Origin: Escherichia phage Lambda_ev058
Length of the DNA stretch: 47,678 nt
Sequence record: LR597651
Strand: one strand, 5' to 3'
The stretch's first letter is position 1. Each line of letters starts with the position of its first letter. The position numbers were made by a program, and so were the translations under genes. This document shows, piece by piece, positions 15,476 to 28,724 of this stretch. The notes under the pieces are model-generated. The model made no database searches and was not told where the DNA came from. It saw nothing but the letters and a program-made list of their open reading frames with translations.

Positions 15476-18400
15476 ATGGGTAAAGGCAGCAGTAAGGGGC
15501 ATACTCCGCGCGAAGCGAAGGACAACCTGAAGTCCACGCAGTTGCTGAGTGTGATCGATGCCATCAGCGAAGGGCCGGTTGAAGGTCCGGTGGATGGATT
15601 AAAAAGCGTGCTGCTGAACAGTACGCCAGTGCTGGACAGTGAGGGGAATACCAATATCTCCGGCGTCACGGTGGTGTTCCGGGCCGGTGAGCAGGAGCAG
15701 ACACCGCCGGAGGGATTTGAATCCTCCGGCTCCGAGACGGTGCTGGGTACGGAAGTGAAATACGACACGCCGATCACCCGGACCATCACGTCGGCAAACA
15801 TTGACCGACTGCGTTTTACCTTCGGCGTGCAGGCACTGGTGGAAACCACCTCAAAGGGGGACAGGAATCCGTCGGAAGTCCGCCTGCTGGTTCAGATCCA
15901 GCGTAATGGTGGCTGGGTGACGGAAAAAGACATCACCATTAAGGGCAAAACCACCTCGCAGTATCTGGCCTCGGTGGTGGTGGGTAACCTGCCGCCGCGC
16001 CCGTTCAATATCCGGATGCGCAGGATGACGCCGGACAGCACCACAGACCAGCTGCAGAACAAAACGCTCTGGTCGTCATACACCGAAATCATCGATGTGA
16101 AACAGGGCTACCCGAACACGGCACTGGTCGGCGTGCAGGTGGACTCGGAACAGTTCGGCAGTCAGCAGGTGAGCCGTAATTATCATCTTCGCGGGCGCAT
16201 TCTGCAGGTGCCGTCGAACTATAACCCGCAGACGCGGCAATACAGCGGTATCTGGGACGGAACGTTAAAACCGGCATACAGCAACAACATGGCCTGGTGT
16301 CTGTGGGATATGCTGACCCATCCGCGCTACGGCATGGGAAAACGTCTTGGTGCGGCGGATGTGGATAAATGGGCGCTGTATGTCATCGGCCAGTACTGCG
16401 ACCAGTCGGTGCCGGACGGCTTTGGCGGCACGGAGCCGCGCATTACCTGTAATGCGTACCTGACCACACAGCGCAAGGCGTGGGATGTGCTCAGTGATTT
16501 CTGCTCGGCGATGCGCTGTATGCCGGTATGGAACGGGCAGACGCTGACGTTCGTGCAGGACCGACCATCAGATAAGGTGTGGACCTATAACCGCAGTAAT
16601 GTGGTGATGCCGGATGATGGCGCGCCGTTCCGCTACAGCTTCAGCGCCCTGAAGGACCGCCATAATGCCGTTGAGGTGAACTGGATTGACCCGGATAACG
16701 GCTGGGAGACGGCGACAGAGCTCGTGGAGGATACGCAGGCCATTGCCCGTTACGGTCGTAATGTCACGAAGATGGATGCCTTTGGCTGTACCAGTCGGGG
16801 GCAGGCACACCGCGCCGGGCTGTGGCTGATTAAAACGGAACTGCTGGAAACGCAGACCGTGGATTTCAGCGTCGGCGCAGAAGGGCTTCGCCATGTACCG
16901 GGCGATGTTATTGAAATCTGTGATGATGACTATGCCGGTATCAGCACCGGTGGTCGTGTGCTGGCGGTGAACAGCCAGACCCGGACGCTGACGCTCGACC
17001 GTGAAATCACGCTGCCATCCTCCGGTACCACGCTGATAAGCCTGGTTGACGGAAGTGGCAATCCGGTCAGCGTGGAGGTTCAGTCCGTCACCGACGGCGT
17101 GAAGGTAAAAGTGAGCCGTGTTCCTGACGGTGTTGCTGAATACAGCGTATGGGGGCTGAAGCTGCCGACGCTGCGCCAGCGCCTGTTCCGCTGTGTGAGT
17201 ATCCGGGAGAACGATGACGGTACGTATGCCATCACCGCCGTGCAGCATGTACCGGAAAAAGAAGCCATCGTGGATAACGGGGCGCACTTTGACGGCGACC
17301 AGAGCGGCACGGTGAATGGTGTCACGCCGCCAGCGGTGCAGCACCTGACCGCCGAAGTCACCACAGACAGCGGGGAATATCAGGTGCTGGCGCGATGGGA
17401 CACGCCGAAGGTGGTGAAGGGCGTGAGCTTCCTGCTTCGCCTTACCGTGGCAGCGGACGACGGCAGTGAGCGGCTGGTCAGCATGGCCCGGACGACGGAA
17501 ACCACATACCGCTTCAGGCAACTGGCGCTGGGGAACTACAGGCTGACAGTCCGGGCGGTAAATGCGTGGGGGCAGCAGGGCGATCCGGCATCGGTATCGT
17601 TCCGGATTGCCGCACCGGCAGCGCCGTCGCAGATTGAGCTGACACCGGGGTATTTTCAGATAACCGCCACGCCCCATCTTGCCGTTTATGATCCGACGGT
17701 ACAGTTTGAGTTCTGGTTCTCGGAAAAGCGGATTGCGGATATCAGGCAGGTTGAAACCACAGCCCGCTATCTTGGCACGGCGCTGTACTGGATAGCTGCC
17801 AGTATCAATATCAAACCGGGCCATGATTATTATTTTTACATCCGCAGTGTGAACACCGTTGGCAAATCGGCATTTGTGGAGGCTGTTGGCCAGCCGAGTG
17901 ATGATGCATCCGGCTATCTGGATTTTTTCAAAGGCGAGATAGGGAAAAGCCATCTGGCTCAGGAGCTGTGGACGCAGATTGATAACGGTCAGCTTGCGCC
18001 TGACCTGGCTGAAATCAGGACGTCCATTACGGATGTCAGCAATGAAATCACGCAGACCGTCAATAAGAAACTGGAAGACCAGAGTGCGGCAATTCAGCAG
18101 ATACAGAAGGTTCAGGTTGATACAAATAATAACCTGAACAGCATGTGGGCTGTGAAGCTGCAGCAGATGCAGGACGGACGCCTTTATATCGCGGGTATTG
18201 GTGCCGGTATTGAGAACACCCCTGACGGCATGCAGAGTCAGGTGCTGCTGGCGGCGGACAGGATTGCGATGATTAATCCTGCGAATGGCAATACAAAGCC
18301 GATGTTTGTTGGGCAGGGCGATCAGATATTCATGAACGAAGTGTTCCTGAAATATCTGACGGCTCCCACCATTACCAGCGGTGGCAATCCCCCAACGTTT

Positions 18401-18958
18401 TCACTGACACCTGATGGTCGACTTTCTGCGAGAAATGCGGATATCAGCGGTAACGTGAATGCGAACTCCGGGACGCTCAATAATGTCACGATTAACCAGA
18501 ACTGTCGGATTCTGGGAAAACTGTCAGCTAACCAGATTGAAGGTGATATTGTCAAAACGGTGGGAAAAGCCTTTCCGAGAAATGGCAGTTATGCCAGCGG
18601 TACAATAACGGTCACTGTGTACGATGACCAGGCTTTTGACCGTCAGATAGTCGTCCCCCCCGTTCTGTTTCGCGGTGGTAAGCATGAAAACTTCAACAGC
18701 AACAACCAACAGTCATACTGGTATTCAACCTGTAAGCTGCAGGTGCTGAAGAACGGACAGGAAATCTTTCAGCAACCCGCGACGGATGTCAGCAGGGTAT
18801 TTTCATCAGTCATTGATATGCCTGCCGGACACGGCCATGTCACCCTGACTTTCAATGTTTCTTCATATGGTGCAAATAACTGGACGCCAACGACCAGTAT
18901 CAGCGACCTTCTTGTTGTCGTGATGAAGAAATCAACAGCCGGCATCAGTATCAGTTGA
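15476..18958 (+). CDS. J: central tail fiber / host specificity protein J
   Basis: 1160-aa ORF; N-terminus [24 protein letters not shown]... matches lambda gpJ as recalled (lambda J is 1132 aa). Confidence 0.95.
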
Positions 18959-21710: not shown

Positions 21711-22568
21711 CTAATTGGGTGATAACAGATCCTGTGTATGGGAGTTTCCCTTTTTGCGTGCGTTGATGCTGGTAACGGCAAACGTCATGATGAACAAAAC
21801 CGCGAATAAGACGACAATCGTCGGAGCTGGTGCGCTGTCGATAAAAAAGGACAACCAGACACCAGTCATTGACACTATTACCGATATGCCAGTCGCCAGT
21901 AGGAGCGCAATATGAAAGCGTTGTGTCAGGAGTACCGCAATGGCGCCAGGCGCAATGAGCAGAGAAATGGAGAGAATGATACCTACCGCTTTCAGCGTCG
22001 CCACAATGGTCAGAGAGACCATGCACAGCAGCCCATAATGCAGCCATCTCGTATGCAAACCGCTTACCTGCGCCTGTTGATAATCAAAGCTGAACAGCAA
22101 AAAATCCCGCCATTTTACGCTAATAACAAGTGTAACCAGCCCGGCAATAATCATCGTCTGGATTATATCGCCGATGGTTATCCCGAGCATGTCGCCGAAA
22201 AGAATATGGTCAAGATGTACGTCTGGTTTGACTGCAATATACAAGATCAGACCTGCGGCAAACATGCCAGAAAAAACAATCCCCATCACTGTATCTTGCT
22301 TGATTCGGCTGTTGTCTTTCAGGTATCCCGTCGCCACCGCGCAGAATACTCCGGCGACGAATGCCCCTGTAGCCAAAGGTAACCCCAGAATCCAGGCAAG
22401 CACGATGCCAGGAAAAACCGCATGACTCATCGCGTCACCCATCAGTGCCCAACCTTTCAGGACCAGAAAGACCGACAGCAGCGCACAGGGTATGGAAACT
22501 ACCAGTGAAATCAGCAGTGCGTGACTCATAAAGGTGAACTGCAGTGGCTCCAGTAATAATGCCATCAT
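21711..22568 (-). CDS. sitD: Mn/Fe ABC transporter permease SitD
   Basis: 285-aa polytopic membrane protein of the MntC/ZnuB permease type; last gene of a four-gene operon with overlapping stop/start codons. Confidence 0.85.
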   Translation of the reverse strand: MMALLLEPLQFTFMSHALLISLVVSIPCALLSVFLVLKGWALMGDAMSHAVFPGIVLAWILGLPLATGAFVAGVFCAVATGYLKDNSRIKQDTVMGIVFSGMFAAGLILYIAVKPDVHLDHILFGDMLGITIGDIIQTMIIAGLVTLVISVKWRDFLLFSFDYQQAQVSGLHTRWLHYGLLCMVSLTIVATLKAVGIILSISLLIAPGAIAVLLTQRFHIALLLATGISVIVSMTGVWLSFFIDSAPAPTIVVLFAVLFIMTFAVTSINARKKGNSHTQDLLSPN

Positions 22569-23422
22569 GAGCGATCCTCCAGCGCCTTATGCGCACGCCG
22601 ACGATTTGCCAAAAGCCCATGGGTGGGCGCAAAGACAAATGCTAAAAGAAACAGCAGTGTCTGCGCCACCACGATGATTCCACCTGTCGCGCCGTCCAGA
22701 AAGTAACTGACCCACGCGCCGAGGAAACTGGTTACACTGCCAATAGTTACAGCAATCATGAGCAGGCGGGGAAAACGATCGGTTAACAACCATGCTGTTG
22801 CACCGGGAGTCACCACCAGACAGATCACCAGAAAGGCACCAACCGTTTGCAGCGCCGCAACGGTCGAAACCGACAGCAGGGTGAAGAAGAGGAGTTTTAA
22901 TCTGCCCGGATGCAATCCAATAGCACGGGCGTGATTCTCGTCGAAAAAGGTCACCATAAGATCTTTCCATTTGAAAAAAAGCACGATGATCGAGAGAATG
23001 CCAATGATAGTGAGTTGCAGGATATCCGCCGGATCGATTGCCAGAATATTGCCCAGGACGATGGTCTGAATGTTCACAGATGTCGGGTTCAATGACACCA
23101 TAAACAGCCCCAGGCCAAAAAAGGACGAGAAGATCAGACCGATGATGGCATCTTCTTTTAAGCGGGTGCGTTGGTTAAGAAACAGCATGCTGCCCGCAGC
23201 CAGTCCGCCGGAAAAGAAGGCTCCCAGAGAAAACGGAAGCCCCAGCATATATGCCCCCGCAACACCCGGGACAATAGAGTGCGACAACGCATCGCCAATC
23301 AGCGACCAGCCTTTTAGCATCAGATAGCATGACAGGAAAGCGCAGAGACCGCCGACCATCGCCGAGACCCACATCGCATTGAGCATATATTCATAGCTGA
23401 AGGGTTCCAGTAGCACGTTCAT
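22565..23422 (-). CDS. sitC: Mn/Fe ABC transporter permease SitC
   Basis: 285-aa permease paralogous to SitD; start overlaps the sitB stop. Confidence 0.85.
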
Positions 23423-24246
23423 CTTTCTTCCCTCTGCACCGCTGACGGTCGATGAGCCACAAAAGGGCGTTCATCGTCAGTAATAATGCTTTCTTCCGAG
23501 CCGTTAAGTGTGACATGGCGCAGTACGCCGCTAAAAGCCAGCTCTAGGTTCTCGGCTGTAAAAGTGGTGTCTGTCGGCCCGCTTGCCAGGACGGTGCCTT
23601 TGACCATGACCGTATAATCGCAAAATGTCGTGACGGATCCGAGATTGTGTGTTGAGACAAGCATCGTTTTGCCTTCCGCGCGTAACTCCCTCAACAGGCT
23701 GATGATTTTGGCTTCGGTTTTCACATCAACGCCAGTAAAAGGTTCATCCAGCAGGATCACATCACCCTGCTGTGCAATCGCTCTCGCCAGAAAGACGCGT
23801 TTCTTTTGTCCACCGGAAAGCTCGCCGATTTGTCGATGGCGAAAATTCACCATATCGACACGTTCCAGCGCATCGGTGACAATTTGACGATCCCTCTTTT
23901 TGGCGATACGCAACATACCCATATGCCCATAGCGGCCCATCATCACCACATCTTCCACCAGTACAGGAAATGACCAGTCAACATCTTCTGACTGAGGGAC
24001 GTAGGCAACCAGGTTTTTCTGTAACGCCTGTCGCGTGGGAATACCCAGAACAGATATCTTTCCGCTGGTCAGACGCACAAATCCCATAATCGCTTTAAAC
24101 AACGTCGATTTTCCGGAACCGTTTACCCCAACCAGAGCGGCAATAGATCCACTTGGTACTGTGAAGGATGCATCGCGCAGTGCTGTGTGCCCGTTACGCC
24201 AGGTGACAGTAACATCATTAACGACAATGCCTGCAGATTGCATCAT
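23419..24246 (-). CDS. sitB: Mn/Fe ABC transporter ATP-binding protein SitB
   Basis: 275-aa protein with Walker A (GVNGSGKST), ABC signature (LSGGQ) and Walker B (ILLDEP). Confidence 0.9.
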
Positions 24247-25160
24247 TATTTCTCCCTTTTCCCAGCTTTAATTCCCTGTACCAGCGTACTGGTAGTAACC
24301 TTAAGAAGGTCGATATACGTCGGTACCGGGCCGTTTTCTGTGCTCAGGGAATCGACATAGAGCACACCGCCGTAGTGTGCGCCGGTTTCACGCGCAACCT
24401 GACGCGCTGGTTTATCGGAAATCGTACTCTCGCTAAAGACTGCCGGGATATGATTTTTCTTAACTATATCAACAACCTTACGTACCTGCTGCGGTGTTCC
24501 TTGTTGATCGGCATTAATCGGCCACAGATAAAGCTCTTTTAGCCCCAAATCGCGTGCGAGATAAGAAAAAGCCCCTTCACTGGTGACCATCCATCGCTGA
24601 TTCTCAGGGAGTTCCGTAATCTGCTTACGCAGGGGGGCAAGGGTTTGGGTAATCTTGGCTTTATAAGTATCGGCATTGCGTTGGTAGGTTTGTGCATTTG
24701 CCGGATCGTATTTTATCAACGCATCACGAATATTATCGACGTAAATCAGAGCATTATCTGGCGACATCCATGCATGGGGGTTAGGTTTGCCCTCATAGGG
24801 TCCTTCGGTGATCCCTACAGGCGTCACACCCGAAGAGACAATTACTTCTGGAACCCCATTGAGATGCTGGTAAAAGCGTTGGAACCACAATTCCAGATTC
24901 ATACCATTGGCGAGAATCAGTTGTGCCCCCTGCGCACGTTTAATATCGCCAGGGGTAGGCTGATACTCATGAATTTCTGCACCAGGCTTGGTTATGGATG
25001 AGACTTCTGCAGCATCTCCCGCCACGTTTTTGGCCATATCCGCGATGATGGTAAATGTTGTAATGACCTTGAATTTTTCAGTTGCACTTGCCTGAAATGC
25101 GATCGAGCAGGTGAGTGCGAGCCCCCCCAAGAGCATGGTTACTTTTTTTATCGAGTGCAT
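24246..25160 (-). CDS. sitA: periplasmic Mn/Fe-binding protein SitA
   Basis: 304-aa protein with an N-terminal signal peptide and a TroA/cluster-9 solute-binding fold signature; first gene of the operon. Confidence 0.9.
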
Positions 25161-25847: not shown

Positions 25848-26618
25848 GTGATTGATACAATGAAAACCTTAAGTGGGAAAGAGTTTAGGAAATTATTTAA
25901 TCGTTATGAGACAGGATTCTATCTAAGTGAGTTTGAATACTTAAAGGACTTTGATCCTTTGTTTCCTGAATGCGTAGGGAAAGAATTAAAGTTGGGTTAT
26001 AAACGAAAAGTTGATGTATGGTGCGAAGAGGATGCTGCGCTATATGCAGAATTTATAGCTACAAAAGAAAGGCTGAAAAGAGGCCGGTTAATCCTAAAAA
26101 TAAACCAAGTGTGGTCGCGTGTATATCCTGCTTATATTTATGCAATTGAAGAAAGAATAAATGTCAGGGCAAAGGGGAGAGAGTCATTTAAGTATGAAAC
26201 TGTGCAAGAAAAACAATGTAAACTTTCCATAATGTTAGATGGTCTGAAAGACCTTGAATGTGAAATAGCTATGATTTCAAGTGAGTTTGAAATTGAAAAA
26301 CACTCTATGCACTATTTTTATATGATTTTTGATATTGAACGCTATATAAATGACTGCAGTTACTTTGTTTTTTCTGCTGCTAAAGTTGTTAAAGGCGTGA
26401 TTCAATGCATTGGTTACATTGACAAAAATAACAAAGCAAGTTGCGATGAATTTTATTCAGGCAGCTATGAATGCTTGGATGATGATCAGGAAACACTGAA
26501 CTATTTAAATGAATCATGCGCAGAGGGTATAGACGCTGATAAAGATCTCATCAGGAAGAATGAGTTATTAGCCTTATCCCTGAAGGAATTGTATCAACTT
26601 CTCGTTTCAAAAAAATAA
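25848..26618 (+). CDS. hypothetical protein, AT-rich accessory gene
   Basis: 256-aa ORF with strongly AT-biased codons, unlike the neighbouring phage genes; no recognised domain. Lies in the variable b-region between the sit operon and attP. Confidence 0.6.
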   Translation: MIDTMKTLSGKEFRKLFNRYETGFYLSEFEYLKDFDPLFPECVGKELKLGYKRKVDVWCEEDAALYAEFIATKERLKRGRLILKINQVWSRVYPAYIYAIEERINVRAKGRESFKYETVQEKQCKLSIMLDGLKDLECEIAMISSEFEIEKHSMHYFYMIFDIERYINDCSYFVFSAAKVVKGVIQCIGYIDKNNKASCDEFYSGSYECLDDDQETLNYLNESCAEGIDADKDLIRKNELLALSLKELYQLLVSKK

Positions 26619-27084
26619 CAAGTAATACGGCGAGCGATATGACGTGCCATGGGATATCCGCACCCAGCAGCATGTTGTCTCCACGATGTCCGCAGTTCGC
26701 TCATAATAGACATTCACTACAGTTATAGTAGAAGGTATGCATGCTGCTGAGTGGGGAAAGTGTGAAAGAAAAGAAGACAGCTGCTTTGTTTGTCGTCACG
26801 TTTATCTTCATTGGCTATGCAAGTCGTAATACAAGGCGGGACAAAACTGAGACACATAAGGCCTCGCAATGGCTTGCAAGGCCACACATGTATTGAGATG
26901 TTAATAAAATGTAGACTTGTAATTTTGATATAAATGGTAGAGAAAATCTTTCCCCAAAATAAAAACGAACGTCAATGAAATCAAACGGTTGAATAAAGTT
27001 GATTTTGGCTAATACAAAGACAAGAAAATAATATTTATGATTAAATATCAGCGAGTTGAATACATAATTTTTATATACTGTTAC

Positions 27085-27242
27085 GCCATATGGGCTGGAC
27101 TGAAGCCGCAGACCTGATTGTTAAAGGTATGGAAGGCGCAATCAACGCCAAGACTGTAACCTATGACTTCGAACGTCTGATGGAAGGCGCTAAATTGCTG
27201 AAATGTAGCGAGTTTGGCGACGCGATCATCAAGAACATGTAA
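27085..27242 (+). other. icd: phage-borne copy of the 3' end of icd (attP core region)
   Basis: Reading frame ends ...[52 protein letters not shown]-stop, i.e. the C-terminus of isocitrate dehydrogenase. Phage 21 and e14 integrate at the icd 3' end and carry a replacement copy (established). Confidence 0.8.
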
Positions 27243-27265
27243 TCACTACATGTGTTAAATATTTA

Positions 27266-27294
27266 AACGGGCGTGTTATACGCCCGTTGTTTTA
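27266..27294 (+). terminator. intrinsic terminator after the icd fragment
   Basis: Direct: AACGGGCG-loop-CGCCCGTT stem followed by GTTTTAT. Confidence 0.6.
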
Positions 27295-27309
27295 TGATGA
27301 TGTAAAATC

Positions 27310-27345
27310 TTCCCCAAAACTTTCCCCAAAACCCTTCCCCAAAAC
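27310..27345. repeat. three tandem TTCCCCAAAAC repeats, candidate integrase arm-type sites
   Basis: Direct: TTCCCCAAAAC at 27310-27320, 27322-27332 and 27335-27345, abutting the int 3' end; a fourth copy at 26949-26959 lies on the other side of the icd core. Confidence 0.6.
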
Positions 27346-27355
27346 TGGCTATTTT

Positions 27356-28498
27356 CTATGCTGTTTTGATATCTACGATAACCCAGTCTTTACCACGATC
27401 ATCATTGTATCGGTCGGTCATTTTTCTGGATTTATGGCCTAACAACTTTTGCGTATCCAGACCCTGTTCCCGATATAACCGTTCTGACAGAGATCGCTGC
27501 TCATGAAATGTGGGCGCAGTTCCTTGCTCCCATTTTATGCCACATTTTTCCCTGGCCTTTTTAAAAGCCGTTGTCAGAGTATTTGCAGAAACCTGGTCTC
27601 CTCTGTTTGCTTGAGAGGTAGTGTGACGGTAATGGACCAGATATTTACTAACAACAGCATCCCTGCACTGAGATATAACTTCACGAAGGGTAATATTCAG
27701 AGCATCGCATTTCAGGTTAAGCGGAATAGCAAGTTTTGAACCGGTTTTTTCCTGAGTAATGTGCAACATGTCGTCCCAGATATCAGAGAATTTCAAATTG
27801 CAGATATCACCTAAACGTTGTCCAGTAACAAGAGCAAGTAGCATGCCGCATTTTAAATAGGGCTGCCGTCTGCTTACGCTTTCAAATATTGCCTGCCATT
27901 CGGGCAGTGACAATCTTTGGCGGTTTACTCGATTTCGCGGTTGTTTTGTTGCCTGCGCTGGGTTAAATCCTGGCGGAACATGTCCTGCGTGTTGTGCTTC
28001 TTTGAAGACGTCGATCAACACCATTCTCACGACTTGCGCCATCCTGTTATGACCTTCAGCCTTTACAGCATCAATTATTTCGGCAATATCAAGTGCGGTA
28101 ATATCCTTGAGGTGTTGCATTCCACAATGCTCACGGAAAAGACGAATGGGTTTGCCTTTTTGCCGATAGGAGTTGGGTCTTAGTTCATTATGTTGCAGCC
28201 TGTCCTCCTGGATAGAAATATATTTATCAAGCCATTCTGTCACCGTAATTTCTGAGCGCCTGCCTTTCATTCTTTCCAGACGCTCATTGACGCTTAATAT
28301 TTGTCGGGTACGTTGTTCAGCAATAATGGTATTTGCTTCAGTAGCAACTTGTTTTGCTTCATTCTCATCAGTTCCTAAGCTATGAAAACGACCGGATAGT
28401 GGATGTTTGTATTGCCAATATACCTTTCCGGTTCGCTTATCTAATTTGCAATATAAATTGGGTATAGAGATTTTGTGAGATCGGGGTCTAGCAGCCAT
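27356..28498 (-). CDS. int: tyrosine integrase (lambda Int family, icd-targeting type)
   Basis: 380-aa ORF; C-terminus ...LLGHKSRKMTDRYNDDRGKDW resembles the lambda Int catalytic tail (LGHKS...Y..DDRG). Adjacent to xis and attP. Confidence 0.9.
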   Translation of the reverse strand: MAARPRSHKISIPNLYCKLDKRTGKVYWQYKHPLSGRFHSLGTDENEAKQVATEANTIIAEQRTRQILSVNERLERMKGRRSEITVTEWLDKYISIQEDRLQHNELRPNSYRQKGKPIRLFREHCGMQHLKDITALDIAEIIDAVKAEGHNRMAQVVRMVLIDVFKEAQHAGHVPPGFNPAQATKQPRNRVNRQRLSLPEWQAIFESVSRRQPYLKCGMLLALVTGQRLGDICNLKFSDIWDDMLHITQEKTGSKLAIPLNLKCDALNITLREVISQCRDAVVSKYLVHYRHTTSQANRGDQVSANTLTTAFKKAREKCGIKWEQGTAPTFHEQRSLSERLYREQGLDTQKLLGHKSRKMTDRYNDDRGKDWVIVDIKTA

Positions 28499-28724
28499 CA
28501 GCGATTATCCGTTGGAGTTTTGGGTTTGCGTTTATTGGGAGTTGCGGTTCTGCAAGCGTTCCTACAAAACGGGAATTTCGGTCAATCATCCAGTAGCGAC
28601 CAACTTTTATAGCGGGTGGGGCCATCATTTTCCCTTGCGCGTATTTTTTCAGAACTCGCTCACTTGGTGCTAAGTCCCCAAATTCTTCTTTAGCCCAGTC
28701 CTGTAAAGTGATTAGTCGAGACAT
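28488..28724 (-). CDS. xis: excisionase
   Basis: 78-aa ORF overlapping the int start; small basic winged-helix-type protein in the canonical position. Confidence 0.7.
   Translation of the reverse strand: MSRLITLQDWAKEEFGDLAPSERVLKKYAQGKMMAPPAIKVGRYWMIDRNSRFVGTLAEPQLPINANPKLQRIIADGC

What the first reader, a model, noticed from the sequence alone, without database searches (positions are those of the whole stretch)
26949..27345. attP architecture: icd 3'-end copy flanked by TTCCCCAAAAC arm-type repeats
Upstream of int the phage carries a stretch encoding the C-terminal ~50 residues of isocitrate dehydrogenase with its terminator hairpin (27085-27294). It is flanked by one TTCCCCAAAAC copy upstream (26949-26959) and three tandem copies abutting int (27310-27345). 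This matches the logic of icd-targeting elements such as phage 21 and e14, where integration restores the icd 3' end, and of lambda attP with its P and P' arm sites. It predicts the integration site and candidate Int arm-binding motifs.
Basis: partly seen in the sequence, partly recalled or inferred. Interest (0 to 1): 0.55.

Follow-up and report, generated by a model that had tools for sequence, protein, structure and literature searches.

The report
Phage 21-type attP in icd
This is the attachment site of a phage 21-like lambdoid phage: a copy of the last 53 codons and terminator of the host icd gene, flanked by integrase arm-binding repeats, an architecture already described for phage 21, so it is real but ordinary.

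Summary
The 10-mer TTCCCCAAAA occurs four times in the 47.7-kb window, all on the + strand: once at 26950 and three times at 27310-27345. These copies bracket a 217-bp copy of the icd 3' end with its terminator (27079-27295), which abuts a lambda-type int.

The region is 97.9% identical to the phage 21 attP, whose GenBank record already annotates the icd pseudogene, the terminator and the repeats.

I added four things:
- About 500 of 5,426 E. coli genomes carry the attR-type junction of this arm with the icd copy.
- Three lysogens whose arms are identical to the window's place the crossover within 27079-27154.
- The geometry is conserved across Enterobacterales: arm site at -129, IHF consensus at -100, arm sites at +231, +243 and +256 from the left edge of the icd homology.
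- The repeat sequence switches with the Int clade, in four classes including e14's GTTATCAAAA. Both arms switch together in the two classes with P-arm data.

Int binding was not tested.

Verdict: a correctly read, already known attP. Low interest.

The parts
26949..26960 (+). P-arm arm-type site (dodecamer TTTCCCCAAAAT); a single copy, 129 bp left of the icd homology edge
   Evidence: Exact 10-mer TTCCCCAAAA at 26950. Unchanged in all virion attPs although the flanks vary. Sits at -129 to -131 in every P arm examined and is replaced by GTTATCAAAA in e14-type P arms.
26979..26991 (+). IHF-consensus site (AATCAAACGGTTG), H1-like, at -100
   Evidence: Strict WATCAANNNNTTR match; there are only 3 in the whole window. 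A consensus match sits at -100 or -101 in 9 of the 10 P arms examined, including e14-type and Proteus/Providencia arms that are otherwise diverged; L102 has none.
27046..27058 (+). Second IHF-like site (TATCAGCGAGTTG), H2-like, at -33
   Evidence: Relaxed consensus match. Present at -33 in phage 21, 4A7 (a strict match there) and L114, but not in e14-type arms.
27079..27154 (.). Interval that must contain the crossover. The core is inferred at its left end, about 27079-27095 (TGTTACGCCATATGGGC).
   Evidence: Three lysogens have attL identical to window 27079-28600. Their attR is identical to window 26300-27154 and differs from 27155 on. In K-12, the e14 attL and attR differ from CGCCA[C/T] onward. 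The left edge of homology is the same in all family members.
27079..27295 (+). Copy of the 3' end of host icd (last 53 codons at 27081-27239, stop at 27240-27242, 3' UTR and terminator)
   Evidence: BLAST to icd in 5,425 of 5,426 E. coli genomes. Alignment A1. Pfam Iso_dh C-terminus. Differences from host icd are synonymous except two near the C-terminus (D/E, K/E).
27266..27295 (+). icd intrinsic terminator (10-bp stem, 3-nt loop, GTTTTAT); it also folds on the minus strand, downstream of int
   Evidence: Terminator scan. Folding gives -17.5 kcal/mol (z -2.9) on + and -16 kcal/mol (z -3.9) on -. Annotated as a terminator in OL657228.
27310..27345 (+). P'-arm: three tandem arm-type sites TTCCCCAAAAC (27310, 27322, 27335; spacing 12 and 13 bp)
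   Evidence: Annotated 'attP ... 3 subsites P1P2P3; consensus YYTTCCCCAAAA' in phage 21. Conserved at +231, +243 and +256 in relatives, with a clade-specific motif.
27356..28498 (-). int, a lambda-type heterobivalent tyrosine integrase (380 aa)
   Evidence: Pfam Arm-DNA-bind_1 on residues 1-71 (E 1.7e-28) plus Phage_integrase. Full-length match to lambda Int structures 1z1b and 5j0n, E 1e-55.
28488..28724 (-). xis (excisionase, 78 aa), overlapping the int start
   Evidence: Pfam Exc PF07825, E 6.7e-6. Annotated as excisionase in phage 21 and in lysogens.

Best explanation
The segment 26949-27345 is the attP of a phage 21-type lambdoid phage that integrates into the host isocitrate dehydrogenase gene. 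Int is a lambda-type enzyme with a separate N-terminal arm-binding domain. It is expected to bind the TTCCCCAAAA(C/T) repeats, one in the P arm and three in the P' arm, while its catalytic domains act on a core at the left edge of the icd-homologous segment (about 27079-27095). IHF sites at -100 and -33 would bend the AT-rich P arm. Strand exchange with icd joins the host's icd 5' part to the phage-borne last 53 codons and terminator, so icd stays intact at attL. The displaced host 3' end becomes a pseudogene at attR.

Shown here: the anatomy, near-identity to phage 21, integration at icd in natural lysogens, a crossover within 27079-27154, and conserved geometry with motif/Int covariation.

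Inferred, not shown: physical Int and IHF binding, the exact overlap, and how the 230-bp core-to-P' distance is bridged.
For: - Identity: 97.9% to phage 21 attP/int and 100% to phages Lambda_2E9, 1H12 and others. The phage 21 record annotates the same parts.
- Repeats: four exact 10-mers, found only here in the window.
- Int: it has the lambda arm-binding domain and is a full-length lambda Int homologue. xis is adjacent.
- Lysogens: attL is icd + repeats + int; attR is P arm + icd fragment + host flank. Exact P-arm/icd junction words occur in 103 + 304 + 93 E. coli genomes.
- Crossover: attL is 100% identical to window 27079-28600, and attR is identical to window 26300-27154 and then diverges, in three lysogens.
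- Relatives: 57 of the 80 Int-relative loci returned across Enterobacterales contain icd sequence. In 50 of them the end of icd lies 100-170 bp from the int stop, convergent, with 2-4 tandem repeats in between.
- Motif classes: four classes follow the Int clades and N-domain residues 15-30.
- Both arms switch together: the P-arm site at -129 is TTCCCCAAAA in 21-type arms and GTTATCAAAA in e14-type arms, and tandem arrays show mixed junctions.
- IHF consensus at -100 in 9 of 10 P arms examined.
- In K-12 e14 the P' repeats follow the icd terminator although intE lies 3.3 kb away, so they belong to att and not to the int 3' end.
Against: - Arm-site function rests on homology to phage 21 and lambda and on comparative footprints.
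- The motif classes coincide with Int clades, so part of the covariation is shared ancestry. P-arm data exist for only two of the four classes.
- One locus (L114) has a 21-like Int N-domain next to e14-type repeats.
- I found no convincing inverted core-type sites around the proposed core.
- SNP patterns in other lysogens are scrambled, apparently by gene conversion between attL and attR. The crossover is therefore bracketed to 76 bp, not mapped.
- GenBank record PV340567 is permuted at window position ~27224-27227 rather than at the left edge.
Confidence: 0.9

Rival explanations
1. The repeats are not Int arm sites. They would be some other element that happens to sit at the end of int, such as a 3'-UTR or transcription-termination element, or binding sites for Xis or another protein.
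For: The three copies start 15 bp after the icd terminator's T-tract and end 10 bp from the int stop. No binding data are available here.
Against: A fourth copy lies 360 bp away on the far side of the icd segment, at a distance conserved to within 2 bp in diverged elements. In e14 the P' repeats stay beside icd while intE is 3.3 kb away. The motif switches together in both arms and with the Int N-terminal arm-binding domain. The layout of three tandem P' sites next to int matches lambda (established knowledge). The phage 21 record labels them attP subsites.
Confidence: 0.05
2. The crossover lies deep inside the icd copy, near its stop codon (about 27219-27227). The P' sites would then sit at lambda-like distances (+85 to +120), and most of the icd homology would be P-arm ballast.
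For: Record PV340567 (PhiR47_2) is opened at CATC, equivalent to 27224-27227. In lysogen CP160125, attL has host-like SNPs at 27095-27146 and attR has phage 21-like ones. P' sites would sit at lambda-like spacing.
Against: Three lysogens with arms identical to the window show that attP carries the attL alleles from 27155 onward, so exchange is left of 27155. Virion attPs (Perceval, 4A7, ev207) carry the 'host-like' T/G/T alleles directly next to the P arm, which removes the CP160125 argument. The e14 junctions in K-12 differ from the first SNP after ATGCTGCGCCA. All elements start their icd homology at the same codon. An IHF-like site lies at -33 from the left edge. The left part of the copy shows only synonymous differences.
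Confidence: 0.04
3. The window is chromosomal DNA, and the icd fragment is a prophage end (attR or attL) or a tandem-array junction rather than a true attP.
For: P-O-P'-type junctions do occur inside chromosomes in tandem arrays (H31; L040, L042, L172 and L175).
Against: The window is a complete lambda-ordered genome, running from Nu1/A through the tail genes, sitABCD, att, int-xis and the early region to the lysis genes. It has no host genes at either side. Both arms carry the same motif class. It is collinear and 100% identical at att with virion-sequenced phages.
Confidence: 0.01

Closest known systems
Phage 21 attP (M61865; OL657228; Wang et al. 1997, J Bacteriol 179:5705, PMC179457 - cited from memory, existence confirmed in the reference list seen)
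   Same: 97.9% identical over 800 bp. Same icd pseudogene, terminator, three P' dodecamers and single P dodecamer at identical offsets. Same int-xis module. As I recall, the published minimal attP was 366-418 bp bounded by the outermost dodecamers, with a 209-bp icd homology and an IHF requirement. The span here is 397 bp.
   Different: About 16 substitutions in 800 bp. These include the Leu codon at the left edge of the homology (TTA here, CTG in phage 21) and several synonymous changes and terminator-loop changes in the icd copy. Nothing differs architecturally.
e14 cryptic prophage of E. coli K-12 (intE/xisE; icd / icdC)
   Same: Same target, and the same left edge of the icd homology. Same geometry: arm site at -129, IHF consensus at -100, three P' sites just after the icd terminator.
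   Different: The arm motif is GTTATCAAAA, not TTCCCCAAAA. Int relatives carrying that motif are 57-62% identical to the window Int, with a different N-domain signature (LYPLxSRK against LYCKLDKR). ymfD, ymfE and lit lie between P' and intE. There is no -33 IHF-like site.
Phage lambda attP (P1, P2 / H1, H2, X, F / COC' / H' / P'1-3)
   Same: Heterobivalent Int homologous over its full length. Arm sites on both sides of the core, three tandem P' sites abutting the 3' end of int, IHF sites in the P arm, and an adjacent xis.
   Different: The target is inside a protein-coding gene, so about 215 bp of gene copy separates the core from the P' sites (about 50 bp in lambda). Only one P-arm copy is evident, where lambda has two. 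The arm motif is unrelated. Core-type sites are not identified.
Integrative elements that target the 3' ends of tRNA/tmRNA genes and carry a replacement 3' end (for example P4, P22, HP1)
   Same: Same logic: the crossover is inside the gene, and the element supplies the downstream part so that the gene stays functional.
   Different: The target is a protein-coding gene and the replacement segment is far longer.

Membership tests
Phage 21-type attP (icd-targeting lambdoid attachment site) | Near-identity of the att/int region to the phage 21 reference | tested here: met
   97.9% over 800 bp to M61865 and OL657228; column-by-column comparison.
Phage 21-type attP (icd-targeting lambdoid attachment site) | Phage-borne copy of about 209 bp of the icd 3' end including the terminator | tested here: met
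   Homology spans 27079-27295. The reading frame is intact for 53 codons. Terminator confirmed.
Phage 21-type attP (icd-targeting lambdoid attachment site) | Repeated dodecamers (YYTTCCCCAAAA) at the outer limits of a 366-418 bp site | tested here: met
   Copies at 26949-60 and 27308-45; the span is 397 bp. The consensus wording comes from the OL657228 annotation. The size limits are recalled from Wang et al. 1997.
Phage 21-type attP (icd-targeting lambdoid attachment site) | Integration within icd that leaves icd intact (attL) and a displaced 3' fragment (attR) | tested here: met
   Lysogens NZ_CP160125, CP032515, CP019455, AP022222, CP058223, CP097363, CP033092 and CP020545. Junction words occur in about 500 genomes.
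Phage 21-type attP (icd-targeting lambdoid attachment site) | Int binds the dodecamers; recombination needs them and IHF | not testable with these tools
   Indirect support only: the arm-binding domain, motif/N-domain covariation, and conserved IHF consensus sites.
Lambda-type heterobivalent integrase system | Integrase with an N-terminal arm-type DNA-binding domain plus core-binding and catalytic domains | tested here: met
   PF09003 on residues 1-71 (E 1.7e-28), PF00589, and a weak PF22022 match. Residues 5-378 align with lambda Int residues 4-356.
Lambda-type heterobivalent integrase system | Arm-type sites on both sides of the crossover region | tested here: met
   One copy left of (26950) and three copies right of (27310-27345) the crossover interval 27079-27154.
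Lambda-type heterobivalent integrase system | Inverted core-type sites flanking a 6-8 bp overlap that is identical in attP and attB | tested here: inconclusive
   Only the imperfect palindrome GCCATATGGGC lies at the left edge. The crossover is bracketed to 76 bp. The overlap is not mapped.
Lambda-type heterobivalent integrase system | Adjacent excisionase gene | tested here: met
   78-aa ORF at 28488-28724 (minus strand), Pfam Exc.
e14-type att specificity | Arm motif GTTATCAAAA and an IntE-like N-domain | tested here: not met
   The window carries TTCCCCAAAA in both arms. The Int N-domain is of the 21 class.

The most novel reading that the evidence does not exclude
Two extensions may not be in the literature.

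(a) The icd-targeting Int family keeps one rigid attP geometry across Enterobacterales (-129 arm site, -100 IHF, +231/+243/+256 arm sites). It has diversified into at least four arm-site 'codes' (TTCCCCAAAA, GTTATCAAAA, TCTGCAAAAC, TCAGTAAAAT) that track residues about 15-30 of the Int N-domain. This would be a natural specificity-swap series for arm recognition.

(b) The Leu codon at the very edge of the homology is dimorphic in both phages (TTA here, CTG in phage 21) and hosts (TTA in 1,843 of 5,426 E. coli icd genes). It may lie in the overlap region. If so, a synonymous host polymorphism would decide which phage variant can lysogenise which strain.
Probability: 0.25. Interest if true: 0.35.

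Novelty: already known. Interest (0 to 1): 0.12.

Why it matters
This finding has little discovery value. It is useful for annotation. It fixes the integration site (icd), the att parts and the prophage boundaries for a common family of sitABCD-carrying phage 21-like prophages. About 9% of complete E. coli genomes carry the P-arm/icd junction. It also explains the duplicated icd 3' fragments that complicate icd-based MLST and prophage-boundary calls. The comparative series of arm motifs and Int N-domains could serve anyone who wants to dissect or re-engineer arm-site specificity in lambda-type integrases.

Tried and rejected
1. Locating the crossover from SNP patterns in single natural lysogens. 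This failed because attL and attR share private variants (for example 27114T in FHI_NMBU_03), which points to gene conversion. Phage and host icd 3' alleles also form one shuffled pool. An early impression that alleles at 27095-27146 are P-arm-linked disappeared once more virion attPs were read and the junction words were counted (304 C against 93 T).

2. Testing whether the TTA/CTG codon must match between attL and attR. All 8 lysogens were concordant, but they represent only about 3 independent lineages, so the result is not significant.

3. IMG/VR loci. Most prophage contigs end 3 bp after int and lack att. A P-arm word search returned only 4 loci.

4. Looking for a step in divergence along icd in other genera to locate the crossover. 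This was uninformative because synonymous divergence is uniform along the gene.

5. Two attL fetches missed their target (FORC 064 and ML35).

6. Rfam found nothing credible between 25100 and 28800.

7. The full text of Wang et al. 1997 (PMC179457) is not held. Its content is cited from memory only.

8. No convincing inverted core-type sites were found by eye at either candidate core.

Full report
**What the window is.**
ORF order shows a complete lambda-ordered phage genome. It runs from Nu1/terminase at 147-2592 through head and tail genes, J at 15476-18958 and a side tail fibre. Then come sitDCBA on the minus strand (21711-25160), a 256-aa ORF, the region in question, int (27356-28498, minus) and xis (28488-28724, minus). 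The early genes and the lysis genes near 45.3-46.3 kb follow. The finding therefore sits where lambda has attP, in virion-form DNA with phage sequence on both sides.

**Checking the observation.**
- Exact TTCCCCAAAAC lies at 27310-27320, 27322-27332 and 27335-27345.
- The upstream copy is TTCCCCAAAAT at 26950-26960.
- The exact 10-mer TTCCCCAAAA occurs only these four times in 47.7 kb, all on the + strand. About 0.09 occurrences would be expected by chance.
- The similarity extends to 18 nt.
- The stretch 27079-27295 matches the 3' end of icd in essentially every E. coli genome (alignment).
- It keeps the last 53 codons in frame, and the icd terminator hairpin at 27266-27288 is intact.

**Identity.**
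The 801 bases around the site are 100% identical to several sequenced phage 21-like phages (Lambda_2E9, 1H12, the ev series). They are 97.9% identical to phage 21 itself (M61865, OL657228). The complete phage 21 record already annotates an 'ICDH-like' pseudogene (last 53 aa), a terminator, and an 'integration site attP consists of 3 subsites P1P2P3; consensus YYTTCCCCAAAA', next to a tyrosine integrase and an excisionase.

From memory, Wang et al. 1997 (J Bacteriol 179:5705) reported four things about phage 21 attP:
- it needs 366-418 bp;
- it is bounded by the outermost repeated dodecamers proposed as arm sites;
- it includes a 209-bp icd homology;
- it requires IHF.

The reference is confirmed in a reference list, but the text is not held. 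The span here, 26949-27345, is 397 bp. Campbell's essay confirms that phage 21 and e14 use the same site inside icd with different specificities.

**Proteins.**
Int carries the lambda arm-DNA-binding domain (PF09003, residues 1-71, E 1.7e-28) and the catalytic domain. It aligns over its full length with lambda Int structures (E 1e-55). Xis matches Pfam Exc.

**Integration at icd.**
Natural lysogens show exactly the predicted junctions. At attL there is a complete icd, the three repeats and int. About 47-51 kb away, after sitABCD, there is the P arm, an icd 3' fragment and the host flank (iraM or ycgX). Junction-specific 31-33-mers that join the P arm to the icd copy occur in 103 (TTA variant), 304 and 93 (CTG variants) of 5,426 complete E. 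coli genomes.

**Where the crossover is.**
SNP patterns in arbitrary lysogens were uninformative. attL and attR share private variants, which looks like gene conversion, and phage and host alleles are shuffled. Three lysogens gave a clean answer (118UI, WP8-S17-ESBL-12, AGR6137). Their prophage has arms identical to the window:
- attL is 100% identical to window 27079-28600;
- attR is identical to window 26300-27154 and then differs at 27155, 27218, 27221, 27245, 27264, 27275, 27277 and 27279.

An attP formed from such a lysogen takes everything from 27155 rightward from attL, so exchange occurs within 27079-27154.

Four further observations point to the left end of that interval:
- In K-12, the e14 attL and attR differ from the first polymorphic base after ATGCTGCGCCA.
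- Every family member, from E. coli to Proteus, Providencia and Erwinia, starts its icd homology at the same codon.
- An IHF-like site lies 33 bp to the left of the edge.
- The differences between phage and host copies are synonymous, except for two residues near the C-terminus. This is expected if the whole copy regularly serves as the working end of icd.

I therefore place the core at about 27079-27095. That placement is inferred, at roughly 75% confidence. I did not find clear inverted core-type sites. A GenBank record permuted at about 27224 is not explained, but the bracket above contradicts a crossover there.

**Comparative test of the repeats.**
A scan of one genome per bacterial species with Int returned 80 relatives (51-99% identity) across Enterobacterales. 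In 57 of them the locus contains icd sequence. In 50, the end of icd lies 100-170 bp from the int stop, convergent with it. In each of these, 2-4 tandem repeats lie between the icd terminator and the int stop. The motif depends on the Int clade (counts are the 45 Ints classified):
- TTCCCCAAAA (22);
- GTTATCAAAA (15, the e14 class);
- TCTGCAAAAC (4);
- TCAGTAAAAT (4).

The classes track a distinctive stretch of the Int N-domain:
- 21 class: LYCKLDKRTGKVYWQYKH;
- e14 class: LYPLxSRKxNKVYWRYKH;
- TCTGCAAAAC class: LSCYTDARTKKIYWRYKH;
- TCAGTAAAAT class: LFCFxDPRTKRVYWQYKH.

The geometry is constant. The single P-arm copy sits at -129 to -131 from the homology edge, and the P' copies sit at +231, +243 and +256. 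In e14-type P arms the -129 copy is GTTATCAAAA. Junctions inside tandem arrays carry one class on the left and another on the right, as expected when two different elements sit side by side.

An IHF consensus lies at -100 or -101 in 9 of the 10 P arms examined, although the surrounding sequence is diverged; L102 has none. In K-12, the e14 P' repeats follow the icd terminator even though intE is 3.3 kb away. The repeats therefore belong to att rather than to the int 3' end.

There are three caveats. The classes coincide with clades, so shared ancestry contributes to the covariation. P arms were available for only two classes. Locus L114 is an exception, with a 21-like N-domain next to e14-type repeats.

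**Mechanism.**
Shown here:
- the anatomy;
- the target;
- the crossover interval;
- the conservation and covariation.

Inferred from lambda and from the phage 21 literature:
- The Int N-domains bind the four dodecamers.
- IHF bends the 75% A+T P arm at -100 and -33.
- The catalytic domains exchange strands at the left edge of the icd copy.
- The phage-borne 53 codons and terminator replace the host's at attL.
- Xis directs excision.

The roughly 230-bp core-to-P' distance, imposed by the gene copy, is the main departure from lambda.

**Verdict.**
It is already known and of low interest (0.12). The most novel reading left open has two parts: the four-class arm-site series with invariant geometry, and the possibility that the TTA/CTG Leu codon at the homology edge lies in the overlap and gates lysogeny. 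That codon is TTA in 1,843 of 5,426 host icd genes, and it was concordant between attL and attR in 8 of 8 lysogens, which represent only about 3 lineages.

Noticed in passing
window 26860-26883 (minus strand); also 26831-26844: A minus-strand hairpin GGCCTTGCAAGCCATTGCGAGGCC contains a CII-type TTGC-N6-TTGC motif (26866-26879), and a second looser motif lies at 26831-26844. Both lie downstream of int, beyond the P-arm site, so integration would separate them from int. This matches the CII sites annotated in phage 21 and Campbell's remark about cII sequences in a sib-like stem-loop downstream of phage 21 int.
   Followed up: partly
window 27081-27083: The Leu codon at the left edge of the icd homology is TTA here and CTG in phage 21, two synonymous changes. 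Host icd carries TTA in 1,843 of 5,426 E. coli genomes. Both variants occur joined to the P arm (103 TTA; 397 CTG). attL and attR had the same codon in all 8 lysogens checked, which represent about 3 lineages. The codon might lie in the overlap region.
   Followed up: partly
window 21711-25160 (minus strand): A complete sitABCD iron/manganese ABC transporter operon is carried as cargo between the tail-fibre genes and attP, as in phage 21 and the related prophages.
   Followed up: no
L040, L042, L172, L175 (E. coli-type); L098, L127 (Proteus columbae); L114, L115 (Providencia alcalifaciens): Tandem arrays of different icd-targeting elements are present. Their internal junctions combine a P arm of one arm-motif class with a P' arm and int of another. 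P. columbae has three such integrases in series.
   Followed up: partly
L114 (Providencia alcalifaciens BIGb0506, JAOQNJ010000001.1): This Int has a 21-class N-terminal domain but lies next to e14-class repeats (two good copies and one degenerate). It is the one exception to the motif/N-domain rule and may be a chimeric or decaying element.
   Followed up: no
L087 (PV340567.1, phage PhiR47_2), record ends: The record is circularly permuted inside the icd copy, with CATC present at both ends (equivalent to window 27224-27227). Joining the ends as written would add 4 bp and break the icd frame. This looks like a boundary-calling artefact rather than the true crossover.
   Followed up: partly
L170/L171 (NZ_CP019455.1), L168/L169 (NZ_CP032515.1): The attL and attR copies of the icd 3' end within one genome share rare private variants (for example 27114T). 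This suggests gene conversion between the 217-bp direct repeats that lie about 47 kb apart. It makes SNP-based crossover mapping and icd-based typing unreliable in lysogens.
   Followed up: partly
window 25848-26618 (+): A 256-aa ORF just upstream of the P arm has no Pfam match. It is conserved in phage 21 (CPT_21_31) and in all lysogens, where it is annotated as a hypothetical protein.
   Followed up: no
L088 (USAL01000018.1) and L090 (NZ_JBQPOM010000057.1): Contigs labelled 'uncultured Sutterella sp.' and 'Vagococcus sp.' carry an enterobacterial icd plus a phage 21-type int (99% and 82% identity). They are probably contamination or mis-binning in those assemblies.
   Followed up: no
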